From assembly GCF_016026235.1 (NCBI RefSeq), contig NZ_CP065613.1: DNA of 64,000 bases. One strand, given 5' to 3'. Below, in pieces: positions 9,595-38,758 of the stretch. Source of the stretch: Escherichia coli. Its GTDB lineage: Bacteria; Pseudomonadota; Gammaproteobacteria; Enterobacterales; Enterobacteriaceae. Position numbers and translations under genes: made by a program. The stretch's first letter is position 1, and every line of letters starts with the position of its first letter. The notes under the pieces were generated by a model. The model saw only the letters and a list, made by a program, of their open reading frames with translations. It had not been told where the DNA came from and ran no database searches.

Positions 9595-9595
9595 C

Positions 9596-9955
9596 ATGAG
9601 AACCGTAACAATCCGAATCGAGTCAATGGATAATTTCACGGCTGATGTGCTGTCTGCGTTCCAGGAAGCAGCTACCGGAGCAAAAGCAACCAGAGAAAAC
9701 GTTATTTCATTTCCTGACTGGCAAATGATGCATAAGGTACTGACACCAAAACGCATGGACATTCTGATGGCAATGACTGGTGCCGGAGAAATGTCCATCC
9801 GAAAAATTGCAGCCCTGGTTGGACGTGATGTAAAAAGCGTGCATACTGACGTGACCGCACTCATCAGCAACGGTTTACTGGAAAAAAGCGAGCGCGGAAC
9901 GTCATTCCCGTATGACGACATCCACTTTGATTTTACGCTGGGCAAGGCGGCGTAA
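9596..9955 (+). CDS. Putative HTH DNA-binding protein (119 aa), second gene of inverted cassette
   Basis: ATG at 9596; helix-turn-helix-like segment MSIRKIAALVGRDVKSVHTDVTALISNGLL. Confidence 0.5.
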   Translation: MRTVTIRIESMDNFTADVLSAFQEAATGAKATRENVISFPDWQMMHKVLTPKRMDILMAMTGAGEMSIRKIAALVGRDVKSVHTDVTALISNGLLEKSERGTSFPYDDIHFDFTLGKAA

Positions 9956-10172
9956 TTTTTCGTATATACCGTGCCGTCATTCCGGCGGCGCTTCACACTC
10001 CACAAAATCACGCCTGAACAACCACAACGGGCTGAAACATTCGTACGGATAGCCGTCACGCAGGTAAATGACTCGCTGCGTTTCAGACTCCCAGCGTATA
10101 ACGTGGACACGACGCCCCCTTCCGTCACGGAACCAGCGATTGAGGACTTGCATAAATTACCCGTAAACATTG

Positions 10173-10886
10173 TCACACCTTCCAGCCAGTAGCCTGAAAC
10201 AGGCCCATTCTCGGGTGATACCAGCGGGTACCACGCTGAACGGCACCACACATCATGTGATGAAACGCCTTCAGAAACGGTTCCACAGCAACAATTTCAC
10301 GACGTGCCAGTAATCCATCTGGCGTCAAAAATTCATGAGTGTCTGTCGGGATGTTGTATGCATTTACAAGCGTGCGACATTTCGCATCTGACATACCGGT
10401 TTTTGCTTTCAGCTGGCGATATCCGGCATAGCCCTCTCGAATGGTACCCTTTTTGATTTGCTCAACTGTTTCGGCTACGTGGCTGATTTTTTCTTCCACC
10501 TGAGTGATCCGTTTCTGCTGACGAACAGCCTCGAGCGCCATTGCGGCCACCATTTCGATTTCGCTCATTGGTTTGCGGATCTGTTCTTCCAGTTCGCGCC
10601 AGCGATCTACCAGGCGAGCAGTGAATTCAGGACAGAGCTGTGCGACGACAATGATGCTGTCGCGCTTACCTTGTTCTCCTTCAAACAGGTAATGCTCATA
10701 TTGAACTTTAAAACCTAAGTTATTGATTCTTTCGGAAACCTCAATTTGAGGAGACCGGACAACGCCACCTTTGGCTAATGTTTCAATAGTGCGTTTCACA
10801 TTGTCATGACGCTTACCCACCAGTTCTGCGATCTCAACGCTGGTCATGGATGCTTTGTCGTTAAAAATTGCGGTGTTCACTGCCAT
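10173..10886 (-). CDS. Phage antirepressor/regulatory protein (Rha/KilA-type N-domain with C-terminal domain)
   Basis: Start MAVNTAIFNDKASMTSVEIAELVGKRHDNVKRTIETL preceded by AAGGAG; N-terminal pRha-like motif. Confidence 0.6.
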   Translation of the reverse strand: MAVNTAIFNDKASMTSVEIAELVGKRHDNVKRTIETLAKGGVVRSPQIEVSERINNLGFKVQYEHYLFEGEQGKRDSIIVVAQLCPEFTARLVDRWRELEEQIRKPMSEIEMVAAMALEAVRQQKRITQVEEKISHVAETVEQIKKGTIREGYAGYRQLKAKTGMSDAKCRTLVNAYNIPTDTHEFLTPDGLLARREIVAVEPFLKAFHHMMCGAVQRGTRWYHPRMGLFQATGWKV

Positions 10887-10999
10887 CTCCTTACGGATAA
10901 ATTCTTTTAAGATTCCGCACATTCGTACTTGTTGGTGCCGAACCTTCCTTCAGTTATCCTTTTGATCCCTATAAACAAAAGAACCAAAGGAGGTTCGAC

Positions 11000-11293
11000 A
11001 TGAAAGTTCAGGCCGTTGGTTTATTCTGGTTTCGCGATGCGATTCAGTATCATGAGCTCAAAAATATTTTTACTGATGCTGATGTGCTCTCCGACAGTTA
11101 CACCGAGTGGAAACACGACGCTGAAAAATTGATTAAGCGTGTCGAAAGAAGCGGGCAACGAGTTATTAAAGTTGAAGCGGATACAGCCGAGTTCATCACC
11201 TGGTGTACAAGCGAAGGCATTGGACTCAATGCCGAAGGTAGAATGCAGTTCGCATCCTTTAAGGCTTACCAACAACTTCTCAGCGAACGCTAA
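11000..11293 (+). CDS. Hypothetical prophage protein (97 aa)
   Basis: ATG at 11000 preceded by AAAGGAGG at optimal spacing; protein-like composition; opposite strand to surrounding operon. Confidence 0.45.
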   Translation: MKVQAVGLFWFRDAIQYHELKNIFTDADVLSDSYTEWKHDAEKLIKRVERSGQRVIKVEADTAEFITWCTSEGIGLNAEGRMQFASFKAYQQLLSER

Positions 11294-11363
11294 TGTGATT
11301 GGGGCAATCGAAATTGTTGCCCCATCGTATTTAATAGTTATTTTTTCGCTCATATCACCACCA

Positions 11364-11573
11364 TCACTTCTCATCCTCTGTGTGCGCTAAGCTTGGATGT
11401 GTATATGGAATGTTCGGATCCAGATGGCAGAGAATGGCAACATCCTCCGGAACGCCCCGCGTTTTCCACTTTCCAACTCCCTGACTACCACGAGGCTTTC
11501 CTTTCTTTGGGAACCTGCGGCCAATAGCGGCATTGGTTTTAAATTGAGTTTTTAATATTTCATAAAGGGTCAT
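11364..11573 (-). CDS. Putative Cro-like early regulator (divergent from repressor gene)
   Basis: 69-aa basic ORF transcribed divergently from the cI-like gene across a 110-bp repeat-containing spacer. Confidence 0.4.
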   Translation of the reverse strand: MTLYEILKTQFKTNAAIGRRFPKKGKPRGSQGVGKWKTRGVPEDVAILCHLDPNIPYTHPSLAHTEDEK

Positions 11574-11684
11574 TCTTTAGCCTCACACCGGATACTCTGT
11601 TATCCAAGAATGTTAAACATGAGAATCCAAAGTATCAAGATATTCTGTTACTTTAGTATCAGCAGCCATGAAAGGAGAAGAAAA
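11574..11684. promoter_or_regulatory. Divergent promoter/operator region of prophage immunity switch
   Basis: Spacer between cro-like and cI-like genes containing repeated TCCAAGAAT / TCCAAAGTAT and AGTATCA motifs and AT-rich -10-like hexamers. Confidence 0.4.
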
Positions 11685-12341
11685 ATGAAATCTTTAGGTG
11701 AACGGCTAATCAACGCACGACAAAAAGCTGGGTTAACGCAAGATGCGTTGGCTAAAAAAGCAGGGGTCACCAGAGTTGCAATCAGTAAAGCCGAGCAAGG
11801 CCTTACAAAAAGTTTCAACGGTGACACCCTTTTTAAAGTCGCAGCTGCACTGCAGTGTTCACCGCAGTGGCTTCAGAACGGAGATGAGAAAGGTAAGCAT
11901 TGGGAAAATAATGTTAAGAGTTGCCCCCAGAGGGACACAGCACACTCTTACCCTGTAATTAACTGGGTTCAGGCAGGATTATTCACAACTGCAGGTGATG
12001 ACTACAACATGTATGATCAGGATAACTGGAGGCATTCTGTAAAATACGCTGGTGAGAGGGGGTTCTGGCTGGAAGTGCACGGAGACTCAATGACTTCGCC
12101 TATAGGAATAACATTTCCTGAAGGAATGTCGATCCTTGTCAACCCAGATAAAGAAGTTTTTTCAGGGTGTTACGTCATTGCCAGAAAAAAATCCACCAAT
12201 GAAGCAACATTCAAAAAATATATTTCTGAAATGGGAAAGGCGTTTCTAAAGCCCCTTAATCCACAATACCCAATCATAGAAATGGACAATGATTGCGAAA
12301 TAGTAGGCGTTGTGGTTGATGCCAGATGGGATATTTTCTGA
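11685..12341 (+). CDS. Prophage repressor, cI/LexA-like (N-terminal HTH_XRE + C-terminal S24 peptidase domain)
   Basis: MKSLGERLINARQKAGLTQDALAKKAGVTRVAISKAEQG (HTH) and ...HGDSMTSP...ATFKKY... (Ser/Lys autocleavage dyad); SD AAAGGAG upstream. Confidence 0.8.
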   Translation: MKSLGERLINARQKAGLTQDALAKKAGVTRVAISKAEQGLTKSFNGDTLFKVAAALQCSPQWLQNGDEKGKHWENNVKSCPQRDTAHSYPVINWVQAGLFTTAGDDYNMYDQDNWRHSVKYAGERGFWLEVHGDSMTSPIGITFPEGMSILVNPDKEVFSGCYVIARKKSTNEATFKKYISEMGKAFLKPLNPQYPIIEMDNDCEIVGVVVDARWDIF

Positions 12342-12443
12342 CCAGATACAAAATACAAAAAGAAACCTAAGTATCAAAAACACTTGCAACACCTTGATAC
12401 CTTAGTTACCATAAAACAAAGTTCGTAACTGAGGTATCATCTC

Positions 12444-12893
12444 ATGATCAATAAAGCTACAACTCTTGACTGTCTCGAAGAACTGAAAAACCTCGGCAGC
12501 CTCATTACACTAATAGCAAAAGCAACGGCAGATGCTACGCTCTCTAGCGATATAGAGTCATGCGCAGGACTGGCATGGGATATGACAAATAGCATATCCA
12601 GAAAGCTATCGTCAGCAATGCTTTTACAGAACAAAAATTCTGCAATCAACAACCGCCTTCGCACCCAACGCGAAGCCTGCGGCTTAACAACAGCCGAACT
12701 CGCCAGGCTGCTCGATCTCGATGAAGAAATTATCATCCAGTGGGAGAGCGGAGAGTATGAACCAACTATCAGTATGCTTATCCCACTGGCAAATATTCTT
12801 GGCTGCGATCCGATGTGGCTGTTAACTGGTGAGGTTACTCCTCCGGAGCAACCAAAAAGTGAGGAGCAGCAACACCATGACGCATCTCAATAA
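12444..12893 (+). CDS. Second HTH_XRE-domain regulator (149 aa)
   Basis: C-terminal segment INNRLRTQREACGLTTAELARLLDLDEEIIIQWESGEYEPTISMLIPLANILGCDPMWLLTGE is a typical XRE helix-turn-helix. Confidence 0.6.
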   Translation: MINKATTLDCLEELKNLGSLITLIAKATADATLSSDIESCAGLAWDMTNSISRKLSSAMLLQNKNSAINNRLRTQREACGLTTAELARLLDLDEEIIIQWESGEYEPTISMLIPLANILGCDPMWLLTGEVTPPEQPKSEEQQHHDASQ

Positions 12894-13075
12894 GTTTGCC
12901 CCTTATCTCGCGAAGCTCTTCTACGGAAGAACCAATACCAATGGTGACATAATCGCCGCTTCGCCCCTCAAGGTACATGCGAACATTTTTATCAATCATT
13001 GCGGAAACAGTCTCAATATGAAAACACTTCTGAGACTCGCTATATAGCAGAACATATAAGTCAGCTGAGGAAGCC

Positions 13076-13288
13076 ATGAAAAAGTTCGAAAACATAACTG
13101 TTCTCCATGTTGATGACTTTGATTATACAAACCCGGAACTTCTCCCGGAGGTTGTAAAGGCAATAGATGTTGCCGATATAGTGATTAGAGGAAAGAGAAT
13201 TGTCAAAAACAGGCTCGCATGTACTTCAGGAGCAATGACAGAAACAACCTCACAGCAAGATGATTGGAGCCTGATTCATTTGCGGTAA
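13076..13288 (+). CDS. Hypothetical prophage protein (70 aa)
   Basis: ORF in prophage left operon. Confidence 0.35.
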   Translation: MKKFENITVLHVDDFDYTNPELLPEVVKAIDVADIVIRGKRIVKNRLACTSGAMTETTSQQDDWSLIHLR

Positions 13289-13620
13289 ATGTTTATCATT
13301 TATTGCATGCAACACAGGTGTTACATACGTCCAGTAATAACGAAACAAAAACACTTGGCAGTGAAATTCTGAATTTTGCATGTGAATATGCAAAAACCGC
13401 TGTTGAAAAAGAATTAGCGCAATAACAACAAATATGCCCTGAACGTTTATTGCGGTTTTATCGCCGGGGATTGTTACAACCTTAATCCACAGGAGGCTTT
13501 ATTATGACTTTTATAAAGAATATGGCATCACACAAGACCGCCAGCCTTATTGCACAATACGGTGAAAATTACATGCATATTGCCTGCTTATTTCTGCGTA
13601 AAGCATACGGGAAATAACAA

Positions 13621-13980
13621 ATGACACATGAACCCATTAATACATATCGTCGCCGTATAGCTGTTGCGGCACTCCATCGAATAAAACGTAAAACAGGTAG
13701 TGATCTGCTTATTGTTGACCTTCTGGATGGGAACATTACGACCATAGAAATAACAGAACAGTTTATAAACCAGTTGCTGTTGCGCTTTGAAGGTATTACC
13801 CGTGGTGAATTGGGTCGAGTGGAGGGTGAAACAGAAATCCGAACTGCATACCAGAATGCTATCGGGATTAATCAACATACTGAATACCAGGCTGAAACCG
13901 GAAAGTTAATTATAGACAACCTTTTACAAGAGGTTATTGATTACGCGAAAGAAAAATATATCAGCGGAGGAATTAACTGA
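13621..13980 (+). CDS. Hypothetical prophage protein (119 aa)
   Basis: ORF in prophage left operon, stop overlaps next start (ATGA). Confidence 0.45.
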   Translation: MTHEPINTYRRRIAVAALHRIKRKTGSDLLIVDLLDGNITTIEITEQFINQLLLRFEGITRGELGRVEGETEIRTAYQNAIGINQHTEYQAETGKLIIDNLLQEVIDYAKEKYISGGIN

Positions 13981-14195
13981 TGGCTAATTTATCCCCTGTA
14001 TCTGTTGTGCACGAAAAAGTGCAGATCGTTATGACAATTGAAAATGGCCAGGTAACAGATGTCTGCAAAGTCCGCGATGGAGAGCTGATTGCCAGCATGG
14101 ATACATTCATACGGCTGGCAGAAAGAGCGGGGTATCAGATAACAGCACCTGCTCAGGAGGAAACCAGTGACATTAACAGCAACACGAATTCCTGA
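13980..14195 (+). CDS. Hypothetical prophage protein (71 aa)
   Basis: ORF coupled to upstream gene. Confidence 0.4.
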   Translation: MANLSPVSVVHEKVQIVMTIENGQVTDVCKVRDGELIASMDTFIRLAERAGYQITAPAQEETSDINSNTNS

Positions 14196-14385
14196 GTGGG
14201 TCCACCAGCAGGCGTTGCTGGTCCTGCGGCGGTACAGATGCCGACGTATATTCCCGCATCGGATACAGCGCAACGGATATCTCAGTCTGAAGGTTAACCG
14301 TCGCTGGCGGCTGTTATCGAAAGACGACGGCCGGAACTGGGAAGTAATGAGTCATGAACGTTATTCGGGGGAAATAAAGAAATGA
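14167..14385 (+). CDS. Hypothetical basic prophage protein (72 aa)
   Basis: ORF overlapping previous gene end by 29 nt. Confidence 0.35.
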   Translation: MTLTATRIPEWVHQQALLVLRRYRCRRIFPHRIQRNGYLSLKVNRRWRLLSKDDGRNWEVMSHERYSGEIKK

Positions 14386-14527
14386 TCGACAACCGCACCG
14401 CCAGCGCCATTGACCAGGCATTACAGAAACATGATACACCCGTCGGCCCGTTATTTTTTGTAACACGCCACGAAAGAACAAAAAATGCCTCACCCGAAAA
14501 ACGGCAATTCGTTACCTGGCATTCTTT

Positions 14528-14773
14528 ATGACCACCCGCGCTTTTGAACGTTCAGGATTCCGACAACGCCATCCTGACAAGCGTTTTATCTTCAACGGGA
14601 ATGAGATATGGAAACGTGGAGAATCAACCACAGAGTATACCCGCGCACACCAGCGAACAATCAGACGACTGCGCAGACTCATCGCCAGGAAACAGTATAC
14701 AGAAAAATGGTTCAGAAAATATGACACATGGAGCGCCGGATATTACGAACTGATGGCAACAAAACCATTCTGA
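14528..14773 (+). CDS. Hypothetical basic prophage protein (81 aa)
   Basis: ORF in prophage left operon. Confidence 0.35.
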   Translation: MTTRAFERSGFRQRHPDKRFIFNGNEIWKRGESTTEYTRAHQRTIRRLRRLIARKQYTEKWFRKYDTWSAGYYELMATKPF

Positions 14774-14833
14774 CGTAAACGAAATTAACCATGACGCAAT
14801 TAAATAAGGCAAGCCGAATACATCAGGAGGACC

Positions 14834-15022
14834 ATGAACATTTATTTCAGAATAGTTATATCACTGGCAATTATCGCATGTATTTACGGATTAATCGTTC
14901 CGGCCCTCATATCAATGAAGGATACGGTAGCAGTGATTTCTGGCTTTGCTCTGGCGTGTCTGACCCCGCCCTGCATTTATGCCATTTATAAGGGTCTTTC
15001 TTTCCCCAGGAGGGAAAAATGA
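14834..15022 (+). CDS. Small two-TM membrane protein (62 aa), translationally coupled to SPFH gene
   Basis: MNIYFRIVISLAIIACIYGLIVPALISMKDTVAVISGFALACLTPPCIYAIYKGL; stop overlaps start of next gene (ATGA at 15019-15022). Confidence 0.55.
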   Translation: MNIYFRIVISLAIIACIYGLIVPALISMKDTVAVISGFALACLTPPCIYAIYKGLSFPRREK

Positions 15023-15828
15023 AAAAAACAATTGCGCTTGTTTTCGCGGTCAGTCTGGCTGTCTTCGGACTTGTAGGTTGCGATCGCGTTGAACCAGGTA
15101 ATGTGGGTATCAAAGTCAACAAACTGGGCGACGACAAAGGTGTCGGTGAAGTGGTCGGTGTTGGTCGCTACTGGACTGGCTGGAATACTGAAGTTTACAT
15201 TTTCCCGACCTTCAAGCAAATGAAGACCTACGATGAACCGTTCAGTTTCCAGATGAGTGACGGCACAACCATCGGCTATCACATCGGCGTGGCCTACAAA
15301 GTTGATCCATCCAAAGTTACCACGGTGTTTCAGACTTACCGCAAAGGCGTGGATGACATTACCAACACCGACCTGCGCCAGAAGATCGCCGACGCACTCA
15401 ATCGGCTGGCCAGCAAAATGACCACCGACAAATTTATTGACGGCGGCAAGTCTGAACTACTGGATGCCGCACTTAAAGACATTCAGGAAGAGATGACACC
15501 CATCGGCATTCAGGTAATGAGCCTCTCTTATGTAGGTAAACCGGAATACCCTCCAACCGTTATCGACAGCATTAACGCCAAAGTCACGGCAAACCAGAAA
15601 ACCCTGCAGCGCGAACAGGAAGTCAAGCAACGTGAAGCGGAGGCCAACATGCTACGTGCGGAAGCTGCCGGACAGGCTGATGCCATTCGAACAAAAGCCC
15701 AGGCAGAAGCCGATGCCATTCGTTTACGCGGCGAAGCTCTACGCCAGAACCCAGGCGTCATGGAGCTGGAAGCCATCAACAAGTGGAACGGTACACTGCC
15801 GCAATACATGACCAGTGGTGTGAGGTAG
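15019..15828 (+). CDS. SPFH/band-7 (prohibitin-like) lipoprotein; extreme C-terminus replaced by IS600 copy 2
   Basis: Lipoprotein signal MKKTIALVFAVSLAVFGLVGC; SPFH-like body with coiled-coil tail (QREAEANMLRAEAAGQADAIRTKAQAEADAIRLRGEA); IS inserted about 10 codons before predicted natural stop (original frame resumes at 17085 and stops at 17116). Confidence 0.65.
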   Translation: MKKTIALVFAVSLAVFGLVGCDRVEPGNVGIKVNKLGDDKGVGEVVGVGRYWTGWNTEVYIFPTFKQMKTYDEPFSFQMSDGTTIGYHIGVAYKVDPSKVTTVFQTYRKGVDDITNTDLRQKIADALNRLASKMTTDKFIDGGKSELLDAALKDIQEEMTPIGIQVMSLSYVGKPEYPPTVIDSINAKVTANQKTLQREQEVKQREAEANMLRAEAAGQADAIRTKAQAEADAIRLRGEALRQNPGVMELEAINKWNGTLPQYMTSGVR

Positions 15829-15884
15829 CCTGAGTTTAACGGACACTCCTTCCTGAAATAGAATGGCATCAGAAGGAGCTAATA

Positions 15885-16187
15885 ATGAGCAGAAAAACCC
15901 AACGTTACTCTAAAGAGTTCAAAGCCGAAGCTGTCAGAACGGTTCTTGAAAATCAACTTTCGATCAGTGAAGGCGCTTCCCGATTATCTCTTCCTGAAGG
16001 CACTTTAGGACAATGGGTTACCGCCGCCAGAAAAGGGCTCGGTACTCCTGGTTCCCGCACGGTGGCTGAACTGGAATCTGAAATTCTGCAACTGCGTAAG
16101 GCGTTAAATGAAGCTCGCCTTGAGCGAGATATATTAAAAAAAGCAACAGCGTATTTTGCACAGGAGTCGCTGAAAAATACGCGTTAA
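15885..16187 (+). CDS. IS600 OrfA
   Basis: 100-aa ORF, differs from copy 1 at residue 5 (T vs N). Confidence 0.85.
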   Translation: MSRKTQRYSKEFKAEAVRTVLENQLSISEGASRLSLPEGTLGQWVTAARKGLGTPGSRTVAELESEILQLRKALNEARLERDILKKATAYFAQESLKNTR

Positions 16188-16222
16188 TCGAACAATGGCG
16201 ACAACAATTTCCCATTGAAGCG

Positions 16223-17041
16223 ATGTGTCAGGTATTTGGTGTATCCAGGAGCGGTTATTACAACTGGGTACAGCATGAACCCTCAGACAGAAAACAAAGT
16301 GATGAGCGGCTAAAACTGGAGATTAAGGTGGCACATATCCGCACTCGCGAAACATATGGAACCCGGCGGCTCCAGACGGAGCTGGCAGAGAATGGCATCA
16401 TCGTTGGTCGTGACCGACTGGCACGTCTTCGTAAGGAGCTAAGGCTACGCTGTAAGCAGAAACGCAAGTTCAGAGCGACTACGAACCCGAACCACAATCT
16501 GCCAGTTGCGCCAAATCTGCTGAACCAGACGTTCGCTCCTACAGCACCAAATCAGGTCTGGGTGGCGGACCTGACGTATGTTGCCACACAGGAGGGATGG
16601 TTGTACCTCGCTGGCATCAAAGATGTTTATACGTGCGAAATTGTCGGCTACGCCATGGGAGAGCGCATGACAAAAGAGCTGACAGGTAAAGCCCTGTTTA
16701 TGGCGCTCAGGAGCCAGCGCCCACCTGCCGGGCTAATCCACCACTCTGATCGAGGTTCACAGTACTGCGCATACGATTACCGGGTCATACAGGAGCAGTC
16801 TGGTCTGAAAACATCAATGTCGCGTAAAGGTAACTGTTACGACAACGCTCCGATGGAAAGCTTCTGGGGAACGCTGAAAAATGAGAGCCTGAGCCACTAT
16901 CGTTTTAATAACCGGGATGAAGCCATCTCAGTAATACGGGAATACATTGAGATTTTCTACAATCGTCAGCGTCGTCACTCTCGTCTGGGGAATATCTCCC
17001 CGGCAGCCTTCAGGGAAAAATATCATCAGATGGCTGCTTAA
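16223..17041 (+). CDS. IS600 OrfB
   Basis: 272-aa DDE transposase component, identical to copy 1. Confidence 0.85.
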   Translation: MCQVFGVSRSGYYNWVQHEPSDRKQSDERLKLEIKVAHIRTRETYGTRRLQTELAENGIIVGRDRLARLRKELRLRCKQKRKFRATTNPNHNLPVAPNLLNQTFAPTAPNQVWVADLTYVATQEGWLYLAGIKDVYTCEIVGYAMGERMTKELTGKALFMALRSQRPPAGLIHHSDRGSQYCAYDYRVIQEQSGLKTSMSRKGNCYDNAPMESFWGTLKNESLSHYRFNNRDEAISVIREYIEIFYNRQRRHSRLGNISPAAFREKYHQMAA

Positions 17042-17150
17042 AAAAAGAACAAATGGTAGTGTCCGCTATTGCCAGTACACCTCAGTGCCAATACACCATT
17101 TATCCAGATTAAATAACTTATATGCCCGGCAGGCCGCCGGGCTAAGGGAA

Positions 17151-17528
17151 ATGCAGATGAACACCCAGAATACTCAACCGCAAATAATGAACTATGACCC
17201 GAATCTGACGTCATGCGGACGCATGGCAAAACAAACCGTTCGATTAACTTTCGGACTATGGGAATACCGCGAAACATTCGAAGTTACTGTCGGCGGCAAT
17301 CTGACCGGACTGGATGTTATCAGTTGCGCTATTGAAAGCCTGTACGCAACGCTGCCTTATGAAGAAGTCGAGGATGAGCGAACAGGGGAAACAGATATCA
17401 TGGCCACCATTAATATTGGCGAACTGATATGTCAGGATGAAGACCTGTCCGGAGAGCTCTGGCTTGCCGGGATGCTTATCTCAGCAGAAATTATCAGTAT
17501 TGAACCCGCTACAAACATACGGCTCTGA
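17151..17528 (+). CDS. Hypothetical prophage protein (125 aa)
   Basis: ATG at 17151 preceded by AAGGGAA; acidic protein. Confidence 0.45.
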   Translation: MQMNTQNTQPQIMNYDPNLTSCGRMAKQTVRLTFGLWEYRETFEVTVGGNLTGLDVISCAIESLYATLPYEEVEDERTGETDIMATINIGELICQDEDLSGELWLAGMLISAEIISIEPATNIRL

Positions 17529-17559
17529 AGTTCTCACTATTCAGAGAGCAGGAGAAAAA

Positions 17560-17802
17560 ATGTTCGCTTTGATTAATCAGGGACAACTGTATACCGACAG
17601 TGCCGGTTACCCGGTAAAAATTATTCGCTGCATAAACAACACTGTGTTGTACAGAAGAATGGATGGGCGAACACAGTCAGTAAAAATAAACGATTTCAAT
17701 GAACTGTTTGAACGGATCGATCACCAGGAATACCGACAAATTCTGGCAGAAACAGAGCAGGAAGCTCATCTGAAAAAATTACGGGCCATGAAAAGGAAGT
17801 AA
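17560..17802 (+). CDS. Hypothetical prophage protein (80 aa)
   Basis: ATG at 17560 preceded by GGAG. Confidence 0.4.
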   Translation: MFALINQGQLYTDSAGYPVKIIRCINNTVLYRRMDGRTQSVKINDFNELFERIDHQEYRQILAETEQEAHLKKLRAMKRK

Positions 17803-17960
17803 AGAATGAATAAAGCGTTTGAGCTATGGGTACGCCAGCGTTACGGCAATCGCTATGACCTGACGCGAGATGTTGACGGTTTCTACTGTCGTGAAATTGT
17901 GAAACGAATGTTTGAAGTGTGGTGCCACTGCCGTGGGCTGAGTGTTGTGTGAGGTAATGC

Positions 17961-18197
17961 ATGGGCAATGTGATTCAACTGGCTCCCAATGAATGGGTTT
18001 GTGAAAGCGTTCTTATCGCAATTACCGGGCTCAAACCAGGCACAATTCTCCGAGCCCGGAAAGAATGCTGGATGGTAGGAAGAGAGTATATTCACGTATC
18101 ACCAGACGGTAATCCAAAGCCATCCAGCGAATGTATGTATAACAGAAAAGCAATAGATGCCTGGGTCTCTTCAATGAAAAACAAACAACCTGGGTGA
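17961..18197 (+). CDS. Excisionase-like protein (Xis, Rac-type)
   Basis: 78-aa ORF immediately upstream of integrase; resembles small excisionase-like proteins of Rac-type prophages. Confidence 0.5.
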   Translation: MGNVIQLAPNEWVCESVLIAITGLKPGTILRARKECWMVGREYIHVSPDGNPKPSSECMYNRKAIDAWVSSMKNKQPG

Positions 18198-32342: not shown

Positions 32343-34420
32343 TATTTGCCGCCAATTGTCGCCGTCATGCGGATATGTCGGTTATCAGACAGTTCCAGAT
32401 TCGACAGGACCACTAACTGCGGCAAGCTGCGGCGCAGGAAGCGAGACAATAATGGTCGCAGCGCGTGGTTCACCAACAATACTGGCGGCGCACCCAGCAT
32501 CTCCTGACGGGATAGCGCTTCCTGAGTTTGCGCCAGTAAACGATCCGCCAGCCCTGGCTCCAGTCCTCCCCCGCCCTGCAGCGCCTGTAGTAACAAACGT
32601 TCCAGCGGTGTATCGAGGCCAATAACATGGACTTCATCTTTGCCAGGAAACCACTGCTGGGTAATCGCCCGTCCCAACGCCACGCGCACGACGGCGGTTA
32701 ATTCATGTGGATCGCTTTGGATGGGCGCATGTTCCGCCAGCGTTTCGAGAATGGTGCGCATATCGCGAATCGGTACTTTTTCATCGAGGAGATTTTGCAG
32801 CACTTTATGCAGTGTGGTGAGCGTGACGACGCCAGGAACGAGATCTTCCGTCAGCTTTGGCATCTCCTGGGCGACGCGATCCAACAGCTGTTGCGCCTCC
32901 TGACGACCAAACAGCTCTGCGGCATGCTGGCTAATGAGGTGGTTAAGATGCGTTGCTACCACCGTGCTGGCCTCAACCACTGTGTACCCCTGAATCTGCG
33001 CCTGTTCTTTTAGCGCACTTTCAATCCAGATAGCATTCAGGCCAAATGCCGGATCGACGGTCGCCTCACCAGGTAACGTCCCGGCAGCGGTACCAGGGTT
33101 AATTGCCAGCCAGCGCCCCGGATAAGCATCACCACTGCCAATCTCTACGCCTTTCATCAAAATACGATAACGTGCCGGTTGCAGATCCATATTGTCGCGA
33201 ATGTGCACCACCGGCGGCAAGAAGCCCATTTCCTGAGCAAATTTCTTACGAATACTACGAATACGGCCCAGCAACTCGCCATCTTGTTGGAAATCAACCA
33301 TCGGGATCAGTCGATAACCCACTTCCATTCCCAGAGAATCTTCCAGTTGTACATCGTTCCACGTCGCTTCTACAACGGTATTATTCTCTGCCATTTTTAC
33401 CGGTTTGGGTTCGGCAGGCGCTTTTTGTTCGCGTCCGCGTATCCACCAGGCCAGCCCGAGCAATCCGGCAGTGAACAGCAAAAATACCAGGTTCGGCATT
33501 CCAGGCACCAGGCCGAGTAAACCGAGCACGGCGGCGCTTAACAACATAACGCTTGGGTTACTGAAAAGCTGATTCACCATCTGCTCGCCAACATCCTGAT
33601 CGGTGCTGACACGCGTAACGATGACCCCCGCGGCGGTAGAAATCACCAGCGCCGGAATTTGTGCCACCAGACCGTCGCCAATGGTCAATAGCGTATAACT
33701 TTCCGCCGCGTGTCCCATGCTCATGCCATGTTGCAGCACGCCGACCAGCAACCCGCCGACAACGTTAATGACCATGATGAGGATCCCGGCGATGGCATCG
33801 CCGCGAACAAACTTACTTGCCCCGTCCATTGAGCCGTAAAAATCGGCTTCCTGAGTGACTTCGGAGCGGCGTTTTTTCGCCTCATCTTCACCAATCAATC
33901 CGGCGTTAAGGTCGGCGTCAATCGCCATCTGCTTACCCGGCATACCATCGAGAACAAAGCGCGCACCCACTTCTGCGATACGCCCGGCACCTTTGGTAAT
34001 GACCATAAAGTTGATGATCACGAGAATGACAAACACCACGATACCGATAGCGAAATTGCCACCAACGAGGAAGTGACCGAACGCTTCGACCACCTTCCCT
34101 GCCGCCGCTGCGCCGGTATGCCCTTCCATCAAAATGATACGGGTTGAAGCCACGTTAAGTGCCAGACGCAACAGCGTGGTAAACAACAGAATGGTCGGAA
34201 ACGCAGCAAACTCGAGCGTGCGCTGGGTAAACATCGCCACCAGCAACACCATGATCGACAAGGCAATATTGAAGGTAAACAACAGGTCGAGTATGAATGC
34301 GGGCAGTGGCAGCACCATCATCGACAAGATCAACAGGATCAAAATCGGTCCGGCAAGGATCTGCCATTGTGTCGATTTCAGGTTTGCGGGCAGGCGCAGC
34401 ATCGCGGCCAGATTACTCAT
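32342..34420 (-). CDS. flhA: Flagellar export apparatus protein FlhA
   Basis: 692 aa from MSNLAAMLRLPANLKSTQWQILAGPILILLIL...; the 25 extra N-terminal codons in the ORF track come from read-through of the flhB 3' end. Confidence 0.93.
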   Translation of the reverse strand: MSNLAAMLRLPANLKSTQWQILAGPILILLILSMMVLPLPAFILDLLFTFNIALSIMVLLVAMFTQRTLEFAAFPTILLFTTLLRLALNVASTRIILMEGHTGAAAAGKVVEAFGHFLVGGNFAIGIVVFVILVIINFMVITKGAGRIAEVGARFVLDGMPGKQMAIDADLNAGLIGEDEAKKRRSEVTQEADFYGSMDGASKFVRGDAIAGILIMVINVVGGLLVGVLQHGMSMGHAAESYTLLTIGDGLVAQIPALVISTAAGVIVTRVSTDQDVGEQMVNQLFSNPSVMLLSAAVLGLLGLVPGMPNLVFLLFTAGLLGLAWWIRGREQKAPAEPKPVKMAENNTVVEATWNDVQLEDSLGMEVGYRLIPMVDFQQDGELLGRIRSIRKKFAQEMGFLPPVVHIRDNMDLQPARYRILMKGVEIGSGDAYPGRWLAINPGTAAGTLPGEATVDPAFGLNAIWIESALKEQAQIQGYTVVEASTVVATHLNHLISQHAAELFGRQEAQQLLDRVAQEMPKLTEDLVPGVVTLTTLHKVLQNLLDEKVPIRDMRTILETLAEHAPIQSDPHELTAVVRVALGRAITQQWFPGKDEVHVIGLDTPLERLLLQALQGGGGLEPGLADRLLAQTQEALSRQEMLGAPPVLLVNHALRPLLSRFLRRSLPQLVVLSNLELSDNRHIRMTATIGGK

Positions 34421-35561
34421 GGGTCGGTTTCTCGTTAATAAAATCCAGGGCTTCCGGCACCGGAAGATGAGTAGGTTGTACAGGGCGCTGTCCACCAGCC
34501 AGACGCCAGCGTTTCAGTTGCCAGACCTAGGCCAGCACTTCCGCCACCGCGGCGTACAGTTGACCCGGGATTTGTTGACCAATCTCCGCATGTCGATACA
34601 GCGCTCGCGCCAGCGGCGGCGCTTCAAGCGTCGGGACGTTATTTTCAGCGCCAATTTCACGAATGCGCAGCGCGACCAGCCCTGCACCTTTAGCGACCAC
34701 TTTCGGTGCGCTCATTTTGTTTTCGTCATACTGCAACGCTACCGAATAGTGGGTCGGGTTATTGACAATGACATCCGCTTTCGGCACATCGGCCATCATC
34801 CGACGCCGTGCAGCCGCTCGCTGCATCTGACGGATCCGCCCTTTAACATGGGGGTCGCCTTCGCTTTGTTTGAACTCATCACGAATATCCTGCCGCGACA
34901 TACGCAGCTTTTTCAGGTGGCTGAAGATTTGGAAAAAGACGTCAAATCCCACCATTGGAATGACACCAAGCACCACCAGCAGTGCGCATAGCCCTACCAG
35001 ATCCATCGCATTACCCATGGCGGTAATCGGAGACTCGGCCATTAAGCGCATCATCTGCGGCCAGTGATGCCAGAGAAAAAACCCCGTCACGCTGCCAACC
35101 AGGATGGTTTTCAAAATTGCTTTAAGTAACTCCGCGCCAGTCTGTGCCGAGAACATCCGTTTAATGCCCGGTAGCGGGTTGAGTTTGGAAAACTTCGGCT
35201 GCAAGGATTTGCCGCTAAATACCAGCCCTCCCAGCATGACCGGAGAAATGAGCGCCACCAGCACCACGCAGCTAATCAGCGGTAGCAGCGCCAGCATGGC
35301 TTCTCTGATCAGCAGAATAAACTGCCCGAGGATCAGATTCGGGTCATTGATAATACTGTGATCAAAATGCAGCCCAGCGGAGAGCATGCCCGACAATCGA
35401 CGGGCCAGGGACACACCGCCAAACCAGATAACACACACGCCCACCAGCAAAATCAGCAGTGAAGTCAGTTCACGGGAACGTGGGATTTGCCCCTCTTCCC
35501 GCGCTTTTTCTAGTCGGTGAGGTGTGGGGGCTTCTGTTTTGTCGTCGCTCTCGTCAGACAC
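34413..35561 (-). pseudogene. flhB: Flagellar export switch protein FlhB with premature amber codon (truncated about 38 codons before natural stop)
   Basis: ORF stops at TAG (34527-34529, inside CCTAGG) after ...LYAAVAEVLA; same frame continues VWQLKRWRLAGGQR...DFINEKPTHE to TAA at 34413-34415, which overlaps the flhA start as in intact operons. Confidence 0.8.
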
Positions 35562-35711
35562 GTCGCCAATCCTGGAAAGAGTATTAAGCGTAAATGATGC
35601 CAGAGCGCAAAGCGTTCAATGGTTTGAGTAAGGGGCAAAACCGGCGGGATTTAGGACGTTTATGCAAAAATAGGTTCAGTTGCAGAACGTTTTGCGAACC
35701 ATTTTCCAGTT

Positions 35712-35740
35712 CTGATATTTAGCCATTTAGCCTATAGAAT
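35712..35740 (+). promoter_or_regulatory. Candidate sigma70 promoter for the inserted dGTPase-NTase operon
   Basis: CTGATA (35712-35717), 17-nt spacer, TAGAAT (35735-35740); RBS AAAGGTGA before ATG at 35797. Confidence 0.35.
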
Positions 35741-35796
35741 CGCCCACCGCCTCTCTGTTAGTTTGCTAATAATTAAATTATTACAAAGGTGATCAA

Positions 35797-37305
35797 ATGG
35801 AATGGCAACAATTGCTTAACTGCAACCGTCGGAAAGATAATCTAAAAAAAACCAACATAGCATTTTTACATCCCCTTGCTAGCGGAAGACAAGAGATCGA
35901 ACGGGATTACGACCGATTACTTTTTGCTGCGCCAACTCGTCGCCTTGCGGATAAAACACAAGTTTTCCCGTTAGATCAAAATGACAGCATACGGACGAGA
36001 CTGACTCATTCTCACGAAGTAGCAAACTTTGCTCGCGGAATAGGAATGAGACTCGCTTTCGAGATGAAGGAGCACATCTTTGGCGAAATACCCACGGGGA
36101 TTGTCGTTGAACGCGACGTTCCTGCTCTGTTAGCAGCGATCGGACTGGCACACGATCTCGGTAATCCACCATTTGGGCATCAAGGTGAAGCAGCGATGCG
36201 CGCATGGTTTAATAAAAATCTTCCAGGTCTTCTTGATAAAGAAGTAAACAGCGAAATATATAACGACTTTCTGCAATTTGATGGAAACTCACAAACCCTG
36301 CGCCTGGTTACCAAATTACAAATTATTAACGATAACTTTGGTCTGAATTTGACCTATGCCACGCTGGCTGCACTGATCAAATATCCCCGAGCTTCATATT
36401 CATCGGACAAACATTGGAAAAAGCACGGTTTTTTCTATTCTGAGCATGAGGTTGTCATGGATGTCTGGCAGCAAACGGGCCTTGGCGTACCAGGTAATGA
36501 TGCCGGTTGCCGCCACCCATTTACCTGGATAATGGAAGCTTGCGACGATATTGCCTACTCTGTGCTTGACGCAGAAGATACCATCAAGAAAGGATTTGCC
36601 TCATACCAGGATTTGCGTGATTTTTTGATGTCACAATCCGGGGCGAACGATGTAATTGAAAATGTTATTAAAGCTGTAGAGGCCAAAAATGACGCCTGGA
36701 AAGAGCAAAGAAATGCACTTTCACCGGCAGAAATTAATGAACTCAGTATGCAAATGTTCAGAGTGTATGCCACCAGTGCATTGATTAATGCCGTAGTAGA
36801 AGCCTTTCGCGAACAATTACCCACGCTGATGCAGCGTGACTGCCCGTTCAAAGATTTAATCTCGCAAAGCAAAGGTCACGCCCTCTGCACTGCCCTGAAA
36901 ATGTTCGACCGAACACGAGGCTACCTTCATCGTTCAGTCTTGCAACTGGAACTTAGGGGGTCTAATTACATTACTAACTTGATGGATATGCTCTGGATTG
37001 GCATCCATGGACACAAAACAAAGAAAGAACGAGACGGAGAACGCGAGTCCGCGTCTGCAGATAACCTTTTTGTTTCTCGTGAAGAATACCTGTCGGATAC
37101 TCCCTTTGGTCGCTATGCTTACGGGACAATATCTGAAAATTATCGCCGTGTGTTTGAAGATCCCGCCAATACACTCCCTGTTCTTTATAAAGAAGCGCAG
37201 TTGCTTACCGACGCAATCTCAGGCATGACGGATAGTTATTTAATGCGCCTTCACGATGAGCTAAAATCACTGTATGAATGTGGTCTCAAACACCCAACAG
37301 CTTGA
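35797..37305 (+). CDS. Dgt-family deoxyguanosinetriphosphate triphosphohydrolase-like protein (HD domain), divergent paralog
   Basis: 502-aa ORF with Dgt signature blocks KTQVFPL, RTRLTHSHEV, AHDLGNPPFGHQGE, FDGNSQ, HPFTWIMEACDDIAYSVLDAEDTIKKG, LLTDAISGMTDSY; lies between flhB and cheZ on the opposite strand. Confidence 0.85.
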   Translation: MEWQQLLNCNRRKDNLKKTNIAFLHPLASGRQEIERDYDRLLFAAPTRRLADKTQVFPLDQNDSIRTRLTHSHEVANFARGIGMRLAFEMKEHIFGEIPTGIVVERDVPALLAAIGLAHDLGNPPFGHQGEAAMRAWFNKNLPGLLDKEVNSEIYNDFLQFDGNSQTLRLVTKLQIINDNFGLNLTYATLAALIKYPRASYSSDKHWKKHGFFYSEHEVVMDVWQQTGLGVPGNDAGCRHPFTWIMEACDDIAYSVLDAEDTIKKGFASYQDLRDFLMSQSGANDVIENVIKAVEAKNDAWKEQRNALSPAEINELSMQMFRVYATSALINAVVEAFREQLPTLMQRDCPFKDLISQSKGHALCTALKMFDRTRGYLHRSVLQLELRGSNYITNLMDMLWIGIHGHKTKKERDGERESASADNLFVSREEYLSDTPFGRYAYGTISENYRRVFEDPANTLPVLYKEAQLLTDAISGMTDSYLMRLHDELKSLYECGLKHPTA

Positions 37306-38026
37306 ACAGCGTATCGCCGATTTTTTTACGCTTAGTGATGAGCATAAGAAAGCCAGAGTATTACTTGATACTCTGGCCTGTTCCTGTCCGGCCTGGATTT
37401 TTGGCGGGATGGTGCGTGACTTAGGCTTGTTTGGCGTCGAAGGATTCTCTTCAGACCTTGATATCGTCATCGGTCGCTCGCGTGAGGAACTCTTCCAGAC
37501 ATTGGCTGAACTGCCCGTCAAACAACTGCGTTTTAATAAGTTTGGTGGGATCCGTTTTCGTTATCACGACTTCGAATTTGATATCTGGAACCTCAATGAG
37601 ACATGGGCATTTCGGGAAAAACTTATATTTTGTGAGGATGAATCAAGTCTGTTAAACACTACGCTAATGAGTTGGGATGCCGTGCTCTATGATCTACGTA
37701 GTGAAAAAATTATCAGTAAAGATAATTATTTGACCGATTTAAATCGCAGACATCTTGAACTTGTTCTTCATACTAACCCCAATCCAAGCGGTTCGGTAAC
37801 GAAGATTTTACGCACTATTTTTACTAAGCAGGTAAAGAGTTTAGGGCCGGAACTCTGTCATTTCTTGCACCATGAACTGACGAAAAAACGTTATGAAGTA
37901 TGGCATCACTACGATGTACTGCACTACCAATCATCGTCATTTTCTCGTTCACAATTTAATGCATTGATAAATTTACTGGCGCAACAATCACGCTTCGCTG
38001 ATCTAAAATTATCAAACTACAAATAA
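37274..38026 (+). CDS. Pol-beta superfamily nucleotidyltransferase (CCA-adding/poly(A) polymerase head-domain-like), 250 aa
   Basis: Motif WIFGGMVRDLGLFGVEGFSSDLDIVIG matches GGxVRD...DxD head-domain signature of CCA-adding enzymes; start overlaps 3' end of dGTPase gene by 32 nt. Confidence 0.7.
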   Translation: MNVVSNTQQLEQRIADFFTLSDEHKKARVLLDTLACSCPAWIFGGMVRDLGLFGVEGFSSDLDIVIGRSREELFQTLAELPVKQLRFNKFGGIRFRYHDFEFDIWNLNETWAFREKLIFCEDESSLLNTTLMSWDAVLYDLRSEKIISKDNYLTDLNRRHLELVLHTNPNPSGSVTKILRTIFTKQVKSLGPELCHFLHHELTKKRYEVWHHYDVLHYQSSSFSRSQFNALINLLAQQSRFADLKLSNYK

Positions 38027-38113
38027 CCATCCTCCACGTACTCCCTGAACGAAACCCGCCACCCTGCTATCGGCCTGGCATCATCGCGCAGGCCGAAGTT
38101 CAGGCAATACAAA

Positions 38114-38758
38114 TCAAAATCCAAGACTATCCAACAAATCGTCCACCTGATCCTGACTGGCTACCACACCGGCTTTGCTGGTATCGACCTGAGGTCCATT
38201 AAGCAAACTCTGGTTTTCACGTTTTGGACGCGACTCCTGTTCCGGGATGTTTTCCAACAGCACCATCAGCAACTGGCGTTCGATCTCCTGAATGACATCC
38301 ATCATCCGCTTAATGACCTGCCCGGTGAGATCCTGAAAATCCTGCGCCATCATGATTTCCAGCAGTTGCGCGTTAGTAAAGCTGGTATGCGCGGGTACAT
38401 CTGCCAGAAATTGTCGTGTATCTGTTACCAGTTCACGGGCGTCGGCAAGGTCAATCGGATCGGCAAACCAGTCATCCCAACGTTGGGTTAACGCTTTTGC
38501 TGATTTCTCCATTTGATCCTGATGCGGTTGTGACGCCTCAACACTGTTCAGCGCCCGCTCCGCAGCCTGGGCGGTCATCTGCACAACATAGTACAAACGA
38601 TCGCGCGCATCGGGGATGGCTTCCGCCGCTTCGGCAATGGCCTGATCCAGCCCCAGTTCCCGCAAACTGTCGCGCAGCATACGCGTCAGGCTGCCGATGC
38701 GCGCAATGATATCGCCAGCTGAATGCTCGTCAGCAGGTTTGATTGATGGTTGCATCAT
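38114..38758 (-). CDS. cheZ: Chemotaxis phosphatase CheZ
   Basis: 214 aa from [36 protein letters not shown]... Confidence 0.93.

What the first reader, a model, noticed from the sequence alone, without database searches (positions are those of the whole stretch)
37274..38026. Minimal CCA-adding-enzyme-like head domain as partner of the dGTPase
The 250-aa protein keeps the GGxVRD...DLD catalytic head motif of class II CCA-adding enzymes / poly(A) polymerases but is far too short to contain their neck, body and HD domains. Its start overlaps the dGTPase 3' end by 32 nt, implying coupled expression. Possible roles: tRNA 3' end modification as a toxin, nucleotide second-messenger synthesis, or covalent regulation of the dGTPase.
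Basis: inference. Interest (0 to 1): 0.7.

Follow-up and report, generated by a model that had tools for sequence, protein, structure and literature searches.

The report
CloB regulator of Clover phage defence
The 250-residue gene is real and is the CloB enzyme of the already-described two-gene "Clover" anti-phage system, in which a small nucleotide-joining enzyme makes a signal that keeps its partner dGTP-destroying enzyme switched off until a phage infects the cell.

Summary
Window 37274..38026 (+) is an intact 250-aa ORF with GGMVRD…SDLD (G44–D63) plus a third invariant Asp (D103), and it overlaps the upstream dGTPase gene by 32 nt. The AlphaFold2 model (pLDDT 91.7) matches only class II CCA-/A-adding enzymes and poly(A) polymerase.

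The pair is not new. The 502-aa dGTPase is about 65% identical (E 3e-189) to Salmonella CloA (PDB 9P8S–9P8V). It keeps 6/6 catalytic, 9/10 p3diT-pocket and 9/9 dTTP-pocket residues. The NTase aligns over its full length (35% identity, E 4e-55) with Salmonella CloB, and D61/D63 fall on that enzyme's catalytic D71/D73.

Clover (Yamaguchi et al., bioRxiv 2025) works as follows. CloB makes the dinucleotide p3diT, which holds the dGTPase CloA off. A phage-driven rise in dTTP overrides this, and dGTP is depleted.

Here the operon is a low-GC 2.4-kb insert between flhB and cheZ, present in 106 of 5426 complete E. coli genomes and annotated "dgt + hypothetical protein". It is an untested subtype, because the tested Salmonella and E. 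coli H5 systems appear to be the tRNA-Sec-island type.

Already known; low interest.

The parts
35662..38099 (.). Accessory insert in the flhB-cheZ spacer. It replaces 87 bp of the E. coli K-12 spacer.
   Evidence: BLAST of the K-12 spacer against the window gives boundaries at 35661 and 38100. GC is 44% against 53-55% in the flanking genes. The whole insert is present in 106 of 5426 complete E. coli genomes.
35712..35740 (+). Promoter-like site for cloAB (CTGATA-17 nt-TAGAAT), inside a block conserved upstream of cloA in other genera.
   Evidence: Consensus scan (2 sites found against 4.5 expected, so weak on its own). The block TTCCAGTTyTrATA...TAGAA is conserved in Enterobacter and in two metagenome loci that have a different upstream neighbour. 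Function is inferred.
35797..37305 (+). cloA: 502-aa dGTP triphosphohydrolase, the effector of Clover.
   Evidence: E 2.8e-189 to PDB 9P8S-9P8V. About 65% identity to Salmonella CloA, with 6/6 catalytic (H71, H119, D120, H128, E131, D250), 9/10 p3diT-pocket and 9/9 dTTP-pocket residues identical. PADLOC dGTPase model E 1e-70. TIGR01353 scores 285 bits, above its cutoff.
37274..37305 (+). 32-nt overlap between the cloA 3' end and the cloB 5' end.
   Evidence: Overlaps of 32-47 nt are also seen in Enterobacter, Salmonella, E. coli H6 and metagenome loci. Translational coupling is inferred.
37274..38026 (+). cloB: 250-aa Pol-beta-superfamily nucleotidyltransferase with a class II CCA-adding-enzyme-like head plus neck. 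This is the finding.
   Evidence: 35% identity over its full length, E 4e-55, to Salmonella CloB. AF2 pLDDT 91.7. Foldseek matches are class II CCA-/A-adding enzymes. Pfam PolyA_pol reaches only E 0.066, and there is no PADLOC model.
37403..37462 (+). Motif A: G44-G45-M-V-R48-D49 ... S60-D61-L-D63, carrying the two catalytic carboxylates.
   Evidence: Invariant in alignments A1 and A2. D61/D63 align with Salmonella CloB D71/D73, whose D71A/D73A mutant makes no p3diT.
37580..37582 (+). D103, the third invariant acidic residue (h[D/E]h of the Pol-beta motif).
   Evidence: Invariant in A1 and A2.
38038..38110 (.). Stable hairpin between the convergent cloB and cheZ genes. Possibly a bidirectional terminator or REP-like element.
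   Evidence: Minimum free energy -28.6 kcal/mol, z-score -4.3 against shuffles. There is no T-run, and the terminator scan did not call it. Function is inferred.

Best explanation
Window 35797..38026 is a Clover anti-phage operon, and the finding is its second gene, cloB.

CloB is a small Pol-beta-type nucleotidyltransferase built on the head and neck of class II CCA-adding enzymes. By homology, it joins two thymidine nucleotides into p3diT (5'-triphosphothymidyl-3'5'-thymidine). p3diT binds a pocket at the CloA dimer interface and keeps the dGTPase off in uninfected cells.

When a phage such as T5 raises cellular dTTP, dTTP occupies the adjacent, mutually exclusive allosteric site. CloA then switches on and hydrolyses dGTP, which starves phage DNA replication.

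Shown here: homology of both proteins to the characterised ones, conservation of the catalytic and both ligand-pocket residues, conservation of the gene pair, and horizontal acquisition. Inferred from the published work on the Salmonella and E. coli H5 systems: the product, the direction of regulation and the phage range.
For: CloA:
- E 2.8e-189 to PDB 9P8S-V, the Salmonella CloA structures.
- The paper's residue numbering was reproduced exactly.
- 6/6 catalytic residues identical. 9/10 p3diT-contact residues identical, including the thymine-reading D37, N75 and Q311 and the phosphate-binding R29, R34 and R38. 9/9 dTTP-contact residues identical, including Y452.

CloB:
- The gene next to Salmonella CloA (L011:7370-8203) has D71/D73 as in the paper.
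- It aligns with the window protein end to end (35% identity, E 4e-55), with D61/D63 on D71/D73.
- The catalytic triad and GGxxRD are invariant in 44 diverse members.
- Fold: class II NTase head plus neck.

Pairing: an HD dGTPase of 449-492 aa lies immediately upstream of the CloB homologue in Enterobacter, Atlantibacter, Salmonella, E. coli H6 and four metagenome lineages. Several of these lie beside RM, DarTG, BREX-like or integrase genes.

Selection: cloB shows 12 synonymous and 1 non-synonymous change against the SMS-3-5 allele.

Mechanism: taken from PMC12265719.
Against: - No experiment exists on this subtype.
- CloB is only 35% identical to the tested Salmonella enzyme (35% to the E. 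coli H6 copy, which has the operon length reported for E. coli H5).
- CloA carries about 30 extra residues, chiefly a charged ~20-residue insert at about 407-434 in the C-terminal bundle. It also replaces three residues the paper names: T25->L27 (p3diT contact), H263->Q271 (octamer interface) and Q427->D455 (stabilises the suppressed state).
- No curated model recognises CloB: Pfam E 0.066, no PADLOC hit, NCBIfam E 0.077.
- The supplementary table listing the >650 published systems could not be read, so inclusion of this exact locus is inferred, not seen.
Confidence: 0.85

Rival explanations
1. It belongs to the same family but makes a different signal. This diverged CloB subtype would synthesise another di- or oligonucleotide, and its CloA would respond to that rather than to p3diT.
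For: CloB is only 35% identical to the tested enzymes, while CloA is about 65% identical, so CloB evolves much faster. The nucleotide-selecting motifs of CCA enzymes (RRD, EDxxR) are not kept, so specificity cannot be read from the sequence.
Against: The CloA residues that read both thymine bases and the 3'-OH of p3diT (D39, N77, Q319, R322, F43) are identical to those of Salmonella CloA. The paper reports that a distantly related Xanthomonas CloB also makes p3diT.
Confidence: 0.08
2. It regulates by covalent modification. The NTase would nucleotidylylate the dGTPase, as MNT antitoxins AMPylate HEPN toxins.
For: The operon resembles MNT-HEPN pairs: a small Pol-beta NTase next to a toxic effector, with overlapping genes.
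Against: [quoted passage not shown] Synthetic p3diT alone inhibits CloA, with an IC50 of about 7.6 uM. The pocket for that ligand is conserved here.
Confidence: 0.03
3. It is a tRNA-directed NTase toxin (MenT-like, or a minimal CCA-adder), and the dGTPase is its antidote or an unrelated neighbour.
For: The closest solved folds are tRNA CCA-/A-adding enzymes.
Against: There is no body or tail domain to hold a tRNA (250 aa against about 400). Motif B RRD, which reads the ribose 2'-OH in class II enzymes, is replaced by T129-T130-L131. In Clover, inactivating the NTase causes toxicity and the dGTPase alone is toxic, the reverse of this model.
Confidence: 0.02
4. It is not a functional gene: a mis-called or decaying ORF overlapping the end of dgt.
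For: RefSeq annotates it only as 'hypothetical protein'. No curated profile reaches significance.
Against: Large conserved family, invariant active-site residues, a confident fold, and a 12:1 ratio of synonymous to non-synonymous changes.
Confidence: 0.01

Closest known systems
Clover anti-phage system, CloA/CloB (Yamaguchi, Fernandez, Wassarman, Luders, Schwede & Kranzusch, bioRxiv 2025, doi 10.1101/2025.07.09.663793; PDB 9P8S-9P8V)
   Same: Two overlapping genes in the same order. CloA is about 65% identical, with its catalytic, p3diT and dTTP sites conserved. CloB is homologous over its full length, with the catalytic Asp pair aligned. The operon is horizontally acquired and patchy in distribution.
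   Different: The tested systems (Salmonella SA20044414 and E. coli H5) have operons of 2203 and 2200 bp, the exact lengths of the tRNA-Sec-island loci L011 and L012. They encode a 471-aa CloA and a 276-277-aa CloB. The window operon is 2230 bp and lies between flhB and cheZ. Its CloA has about 30 extra residues and its CloB is only 35% identical. This subtype is untested.
Class II CCA-adding enzymes, A-adding enzymes and poly(A) polymerase PcnB (Pfam PF01743)
   Same: The head-domain fold and motif A (GGxVRD...DxD), followed by a neck-like helical part. All of the best 46 Foldseek matches belong to this group.
   Different: There is no body or tail, and no HD domain. Motif B RRD is replaced by TTL. 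Motif D EDxxR is not kept. Pfam reaches only E 0.066. By homology the substrate is dTTP, not tRNA plus CTP/ATP.
Single-gene anti-phage dGTPases (Tal et al. 2022; NCBIfam NF041026; PADLOC 'dGTPase')
   Same: An HD dGTPase effector that depletes dGTP to block phage replication.
   Different: Those enzymes act alone and are constitutively active in vitro. The window CloA scores 183 bits against a cutoff of 400 for NF041026. It belongs to the clade that needs dTTP and carries a partner NTase.
Hailong (HalB NTase) and Panoptes/MISS (mCpol): defence systems with inhibitory nucleotide signals
   Same: The logic is the same. A constitutively made nucleotide signal holds a toxic effector off, and infection relieves the block.
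   Different: The NTase lineages, signals (oligo-dA, 2'3'-c-di-AMP) and effectors (membrane channels) differ. No sequence relationship was found here.
MNT-HEPN (MntA/HepT) and MenT toxin-antitoxin NTases
   Same: A small Pol-beta NTase encoded next to, or acting as, a toxic partner.
   Different: Those act by covalent AMPylation of the toxin or by modifying tRNA 3' ends. They have a different NTase sub-fold, and none appeared among the sequence or fold matches.

Membership tests
Clover system (CloB) | Full-length homology to an experimentally characterised CloB | tested here: met
   Window NTase against Salmonella CloB (L011:7370-8200, D71/D73 as in the paper): 35% identity over residues 2-249, E 4e-55.
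Clover system (CloB) | Pol-beta active site [D/E]h[D/E]...h[D/E]h | tested here: met
   D61-L-D63 and F-D103-I are invariant in 44 diverse members. D61/D63 align with the catalytic D71/D73.
Clover system (operon) | CloA-type HD dGTPase encoded immediately upstream in the same operon | tested here: met
   cloA is 35797..37305 and overlaps cloB by 32 nt. E 2.8e-189 to PDB 9P8S. HD and HE residues H119/D120 and H128/E131 are present.
Clover system (CloA) | p3diT-binding pocket (T25, R29, R34, D37, R38, F41, N75, N181, Q311, R314) | tested here: met
   9 of 10 identical. Only T25 differs (L27).
Clover system (CloA) | dTTP activator pocket (R47, D61, Q172, K256, S418, N420, A444, T449, Y452) | tested here: met
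   9 of 9 identical.
Clover system (CloB) | Synthesises p3diT | not testable with these tools
   Needs LC-MS of the ligand released from CloA. Inferred from pocket conservation and from the paper's Xanthomonas result.
Clover system | Protects against T5-like phages, and loss of CloB activity is toxic | not testable with these tools
   Shown only for the Salmonella and E. coli H5 operons.
Clover system (CloA) | Octameric 'four-leaf clover' assembly | tested here: inconclusive
   The interface residue R46 is kept (R48), but the pi-stacking H263 is Q271. About 30 extra residues lie in the C-terminal bundle that sets the oligomer angle. No multimer model was made.
Class II CCA-adding enzyme / poly(A) polymerase (PF01743) | Head domain with motif A GGxVRD...DxD | tested here: met
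   Foldseek E 4e-8 to 3H39/5HC9.
Class II CCA-adding enzyme / poly(A) polymerase (PF01743) | Significant match to the family profile | tested here: not met
   Pfam PolyA_pol i-Evalue 0.066. TIGR01942 pcnB scores 11.8 bits against a cutoff of 305. A PDB profile search gives E 0.04.
Class II CCA-adding enzyme / poly(A) polymerase (PF01743) | Motif B RRD and motif D EDxxR (ribose and base selection) | tested here: not met
   hhalign against E. coli CCA places RRD opposite T129-T130-L131 and EDPLR opposite P169-N-P-S-G (E 0.0013, probability 18%, so the register is approximate).
Class II CCA-adding enzyme / poly(A) polymerase (PF01743) | Body and tail domains for tRNA/RNA binding | tested here: not met
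   250 aa. Foldseek coverage of the targets (TMt) is only 0.28-0.40.
Single-gene anti-phage dGTPase (NF041026) | Score above the curated cutoff | tested here: not met
   183 bits against a cutoff of 400. The general dGTPase model TIGR01353 is met (285 against 152).

The most novel reading that the evidence does not exclude
The flhB-cheZ Clover is a distinct, untested subtype. Its CloB has diverged to 35% identity. Its CloA has an extra charged insert and altered oligomer-interface and switch residues (H263->Q, Q427->D). It could therefore have a different assembly state, activation threshold or phage range than the published tRNA-Sec-island type. Less likely, it could use a modified signal. 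Its fixed position beside cheZ in several enterobacterial genera could also reflect a recombination hotspot or a functional link to the motility regulon.
Probability: 0.1. Interest if true: 0.4.

Novelty: already known. Interest (0 to 1): 0.15.

Why it matters
It adds little new biology. It shows that about 2% of complete E. coli genomes (106 of 5426, including SMS-3-5) carry a Clover operon between flhB and cheZ. RefSeq labels it 'dgt + hypothetical protein', and the 2023 PADLOC models see only a lone dGTPase.

The practical value is annotation. The 'hypothetical protein' can be renamed CloB. The locus should not be mistaken for the housekeeping dgt gene or for a single-gene dGTPase defence.

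The subtype differs enough from the tested systems to be a reasonable second model for how CloA thresholds evolve, but that is incremental.

Tried and rejected
- **Curated libraries.** PADLOC, NCBIfam and Pfam do not recognise the NTase. The link to Clover came from the dGTPase match to PDB 9P8S-V and from the literature.
- **Supplementary Table 1 of the preprint.** It lists the CloB homologues but is not held as text, so I could not check whether this exact protein is listed. I recovered Salmonella CloB instead, through the CloA cluster and its contig.
- **Nicastro et al. 2023.** This first bioinformatic report of the pair is not in the library.
- **Flagellar co-regulation.** cloA and flhB are divergent, 235 bp apart. 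I rejected this as the main reading because a promoter-like block upstream of cloA travels with the operon into loci with a different upstream neighbour.
- **My first guess at the motif register.** I placed S-W134-D135 opposite RRD. hhalign corrected this and puts RRD opposite T129-T130-L131.
- **Rfam scan of 35400..38300.** Nothing at E<=0.1.
- **Terminator scan.** No terminator was called after cloB, and only a hairpin without a T-run was found.
- **E. coli FDAARGOS_943.** It is 100% identical over the insert but is not the window strain. It has intact motA and flhB and different IS positions.
- **Not done.** I did not run the genome contigs or metagenome scans, or a second structure job. 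They would not change the verdict.
Full report
**Where the window comes from**

The window is an Escherichia coli chromosome segment. The gene order around the finding is argS, yecT, flhE, flhA, flhB, then two extra genes on the opposite strand, then cheZ, cheY, cheB, cheR, tap, tar, cheW. In K-12, flhB and cheZ are separated by 201 bp. In the window, 87 bp of that spacer are replaced by 2438 bp (35662..38099). This insert has 44% GC (cloB 41%), against 53-55% in the flanking flagellar and chemotaxis genes. The complete insert is present in 106 of 5426 complete E. coli genomes, always at this site. It is annotated 'dgt: dGTP triphosphohydrolase' plus 'hypothetical protein'.

**The observation**

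The ORF at 37274..38026 (+) encodes 250 aa and starts 32 nt before the stop codon of the upstream 502-aa HD-domain gene (35797..37305). A third acidic residue, D103, follows.

The ORF is clearly a real gene.
- It has 52 close homologues in Enterobacteriaceae.
- It matches 1033 cluster representatives at E<=1e-3 in an exhaustive search, almost all 230-300 aa long.
- In 44 members that are only 25-42% identical to it, G44, G45, R48, D49, D61, D63, N88, G92, D103, W105 and W111 are invariant.
- Against the allele of E. coli SMS-3-5 it shows 12 synonymous and 1 non-synonymous codon change.

**Fold**

Curated sequence profiles barely detect it. Pfam PolyA_pol gives E 0.066, NCBIfam pcnB gives E 0.077, and PADLOC gives nothing. 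A profile of the family finds the Aquifex A-adding enzyme only at E 0.04.

The AlphaFold2 model built on 33 homologues is confident (pLDDT 91.7, pTM 0.88). Its best 46 Foldseek matches in the PDB are all class II CCA-adding enzymes, A-adding enzymes or poly(A) polymerase. They have E down to 4e-8 and 175-250 aligned columns, but target coverage is only 0.28-0.40. The protein is therefore the head plus a neck-like helical part of that fold, without body or tail.

A profile alignment with E. coli CCA (E 0.0013) aligns motif A. It places the RRD of motif B opposite T129-T130-L131 and the EDPLR of motif D opposite P-N-P-S-G. From established knowledge of class II enzymes, RRD reads the ribose 2'-OH and EDxxR templates CTP/ATP. 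Their absence is consistent with a different, deoxynucleotide substrate. This last step is inference.

**What it is**

The upstream protein matches four PDB entries, 9P8S-9P8V ('dNTP triphosphohydrolase'), at E 2.8e-189. These are the cryo-EM structures of Salmonella enterica CloA from the preprint that defines the Clover defence system (PMC12265719).

I rebuilt the Salmonella sequence from the alignment and confirmed that it reproduces the paper's residue numbering. I then mapped the residues the paper names.
- Overall identity is about 65%.
- All six catalytic residues are identical (H69, H117, D118, H126, E129, D242, corresponding to H71, H119, D120, H128, E131, D250).
- Nine of the ten p3diT contacts are identical. 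Only T25 differs (L27). The thymine-reading D37, N75 and Q311 are kept.
- All nine dTTP contacts are identical, including Y452.

To test the NTase directly, I located Salmonella CloA in the protein collection (P0202, 99% identical) and fetched its contig. The adjacent 277-aa gene has Asp at positions 71 and 73, matching the paper's D71A/D73A mutant. The operon there is 2203 bp, the length the paper gives. The window NTase aligns with this CloB from residue 2 to 249 (35% identity, 60% similarity, E 4e-55), and D61/D63 fall on D71/D73. Both genes therefore meet the sequence-level criteria for Clover.

**Context of relatives**

An HD dGTPase of 449-492 aa lies directly upstream of the CloB homologue in every informative locus.
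- Enterobacter, at the same flhB-cheZ site.
- Two metagenome loci with araC instead of flhB upstream but cheZ downstream.
- Atlantibacter, Salmonella and E. coli H6. Here the pair lies next to a QueC/PfkB/Ogg/Dam cluster, type I RM, DarT-macro or an integrase at tRNA-Sec.
- A 32%-identical pair in an integrase/GmrSD island.
- Two further metagenome lineages, one beside BrxC/PglY-like genes.

One contig was too short to judge. The p3diT and dTTP pockets are conserved across these CloA proteins.

**How it most likely works**

The mechanism is taken from the preprint, read.
- CloA alone is toxic, and in vitro it is inactive until dTTP binds an allosteric site (EC50 about 15 uM).
- T5-like phages raise dTTP through their Dmp and NrdAB enzymes, which triggers dGTP depletion.
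- CloB synthesises p3diT. p3diT binds a neighbouring, mutually exclusive pocket (IC50 about 7.6 uM) and raises the dTTP threshold.
- Mutating the CloB active site gives a >10^4-fold loss of fitness.
- A distantly related Xanthomonas CloB also makes p3diT.

Both ligand pockets of the window CloA are conserved residue for residue, and the CloB catalytic core is intact and under purifying selection. I therefore assign the same mechanism with confidence of about 0.85. The product, the sign of regulation and the phage range are inferred for this locus, not shown.

**How this copy differs from the tested systems**

The two tested operons are 2203 bp (Salmonella) and 2200 bp (E. coli H5). These are exactly the lengths of the tRNA-Sec-island loci in Salmonella (L011) and E. 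coli H6 (L012). Eight complete E. coli genomes carry that type.

The window operon is 2230 bp.
- Its CloA has about 30 extra residues, chiefly a charged ~20-residue insert (about 407-434) in the C-terminal bundle.
- Q271 replaces the octamer-interface H263, and D455 replaces the switch residue Q427.
- Its CloB is 35% identical to both tested-type CloBs, whereas CloA is 63-65% identical.

It is thus an untested subtype of a known system.

A promoter-like block (TTCCAGTTCTGATA-N17-TAGAAT, 35712..35740) is conserved upstream of cloA in other genera, even where the upstream neighbour differs. The operon therefore seems to bring its own promoter, which argues against dependence on the divergent flhB promoter.

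A stable hairpin (z -4.3) lies between cloB and cheZ. No Rfam family matches the region.

**Verdict**

The structural reading is right. Of the three suggested functions, only signal synthesis fits, and the signal is inhibitory. The NTase is the safeguard, not the toxin.

The system was described in 2025, so the finding is already known and of low interest. It is useful mainly for correcting the 'dgt + hypothetical protein' annotation.

Noticed in passing
window 34413..35561 (-), stop at 34527..34529: flhB carries TGG->TAG at codon 345, which truncates FlhB by 38 C-terminal residues relative to K-12. The closest genome over the insert (FDAARGOS_943) has a full-length flhB, so this nonsense mutation appears to be absent from close relatives.
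   Followed up: partly
window 48237..49528: A 1292-bp IS4-family element interrupts motA. It has 21-nt terminal inverted repeats and an 11-bp target duplication, GGAAAGTCCCC. Together with the flhB nonsense codon, this suggests the strain is non-motile.
   Followed up: partly
window 1..20839: This stretch is not collinear with K-12 upstream of yecE. It holds three copies of a 272-aa IS3-family orfB (5156.., 16223.., 19815..), a tyrosine recombinase (18253..19425), a DnaB-type helicase (3720..4802) and a Rha-domain protein (8389..10251). It looks like a degraded, IS-riddled prophage or island.
   Followed up: partly
L012 (E. coli H6, NZ_CP010170.1 232274..234473); also L011 (Salmonella) and L004 (Atlantibacter): A second, Salmonella-type Clover operon (CloA 471 aa, CloB 276 aa, 2200 bp) lies in a tRNA-Sec integrase island in 8 complete E. 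coli genomes. It is always beside the same cluster of a PfkB/nucleoside deoxyribosyltransferase-like gene, QueC, an Ogg-like glycosylase and a Dam-like methylase. That neighbour cluster looks like a 7-deazaguanine-type DNA modification or defence module and was not examined.
   Followed up: no
L001 3365..6038 (Enterobacter, GCA_013731155.1): In one Enterobacter genome, cloA is split by an IS3-family insertion (a 396-aa HD fragment, the transposase, then an 87-aa remnant) while cloB stays intact. Inactivating the toxic partner while keeping the safeguard fits the Clover toxicity logic.
   Followed up: no
window 35562..35661 versus K-12 flhB upstream region: Only 100 bp upstream of the flhB start codon are shared with K-12 before the insert begins. 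I did not determine whether the distal part of the FlhDC-dependent flhB promoter is affected.
   Followed up: no
cloA codons 282-292 (window about 36640..36675): Five of the nine amino-acid differences between the window and SMS-3-5 CloA alleles cluster in residues 282-292, and this segment also differs in length from Salmonella CloA. It is a local hypervariable patch on an otherwise conserved enzyme.
   Followed up: no
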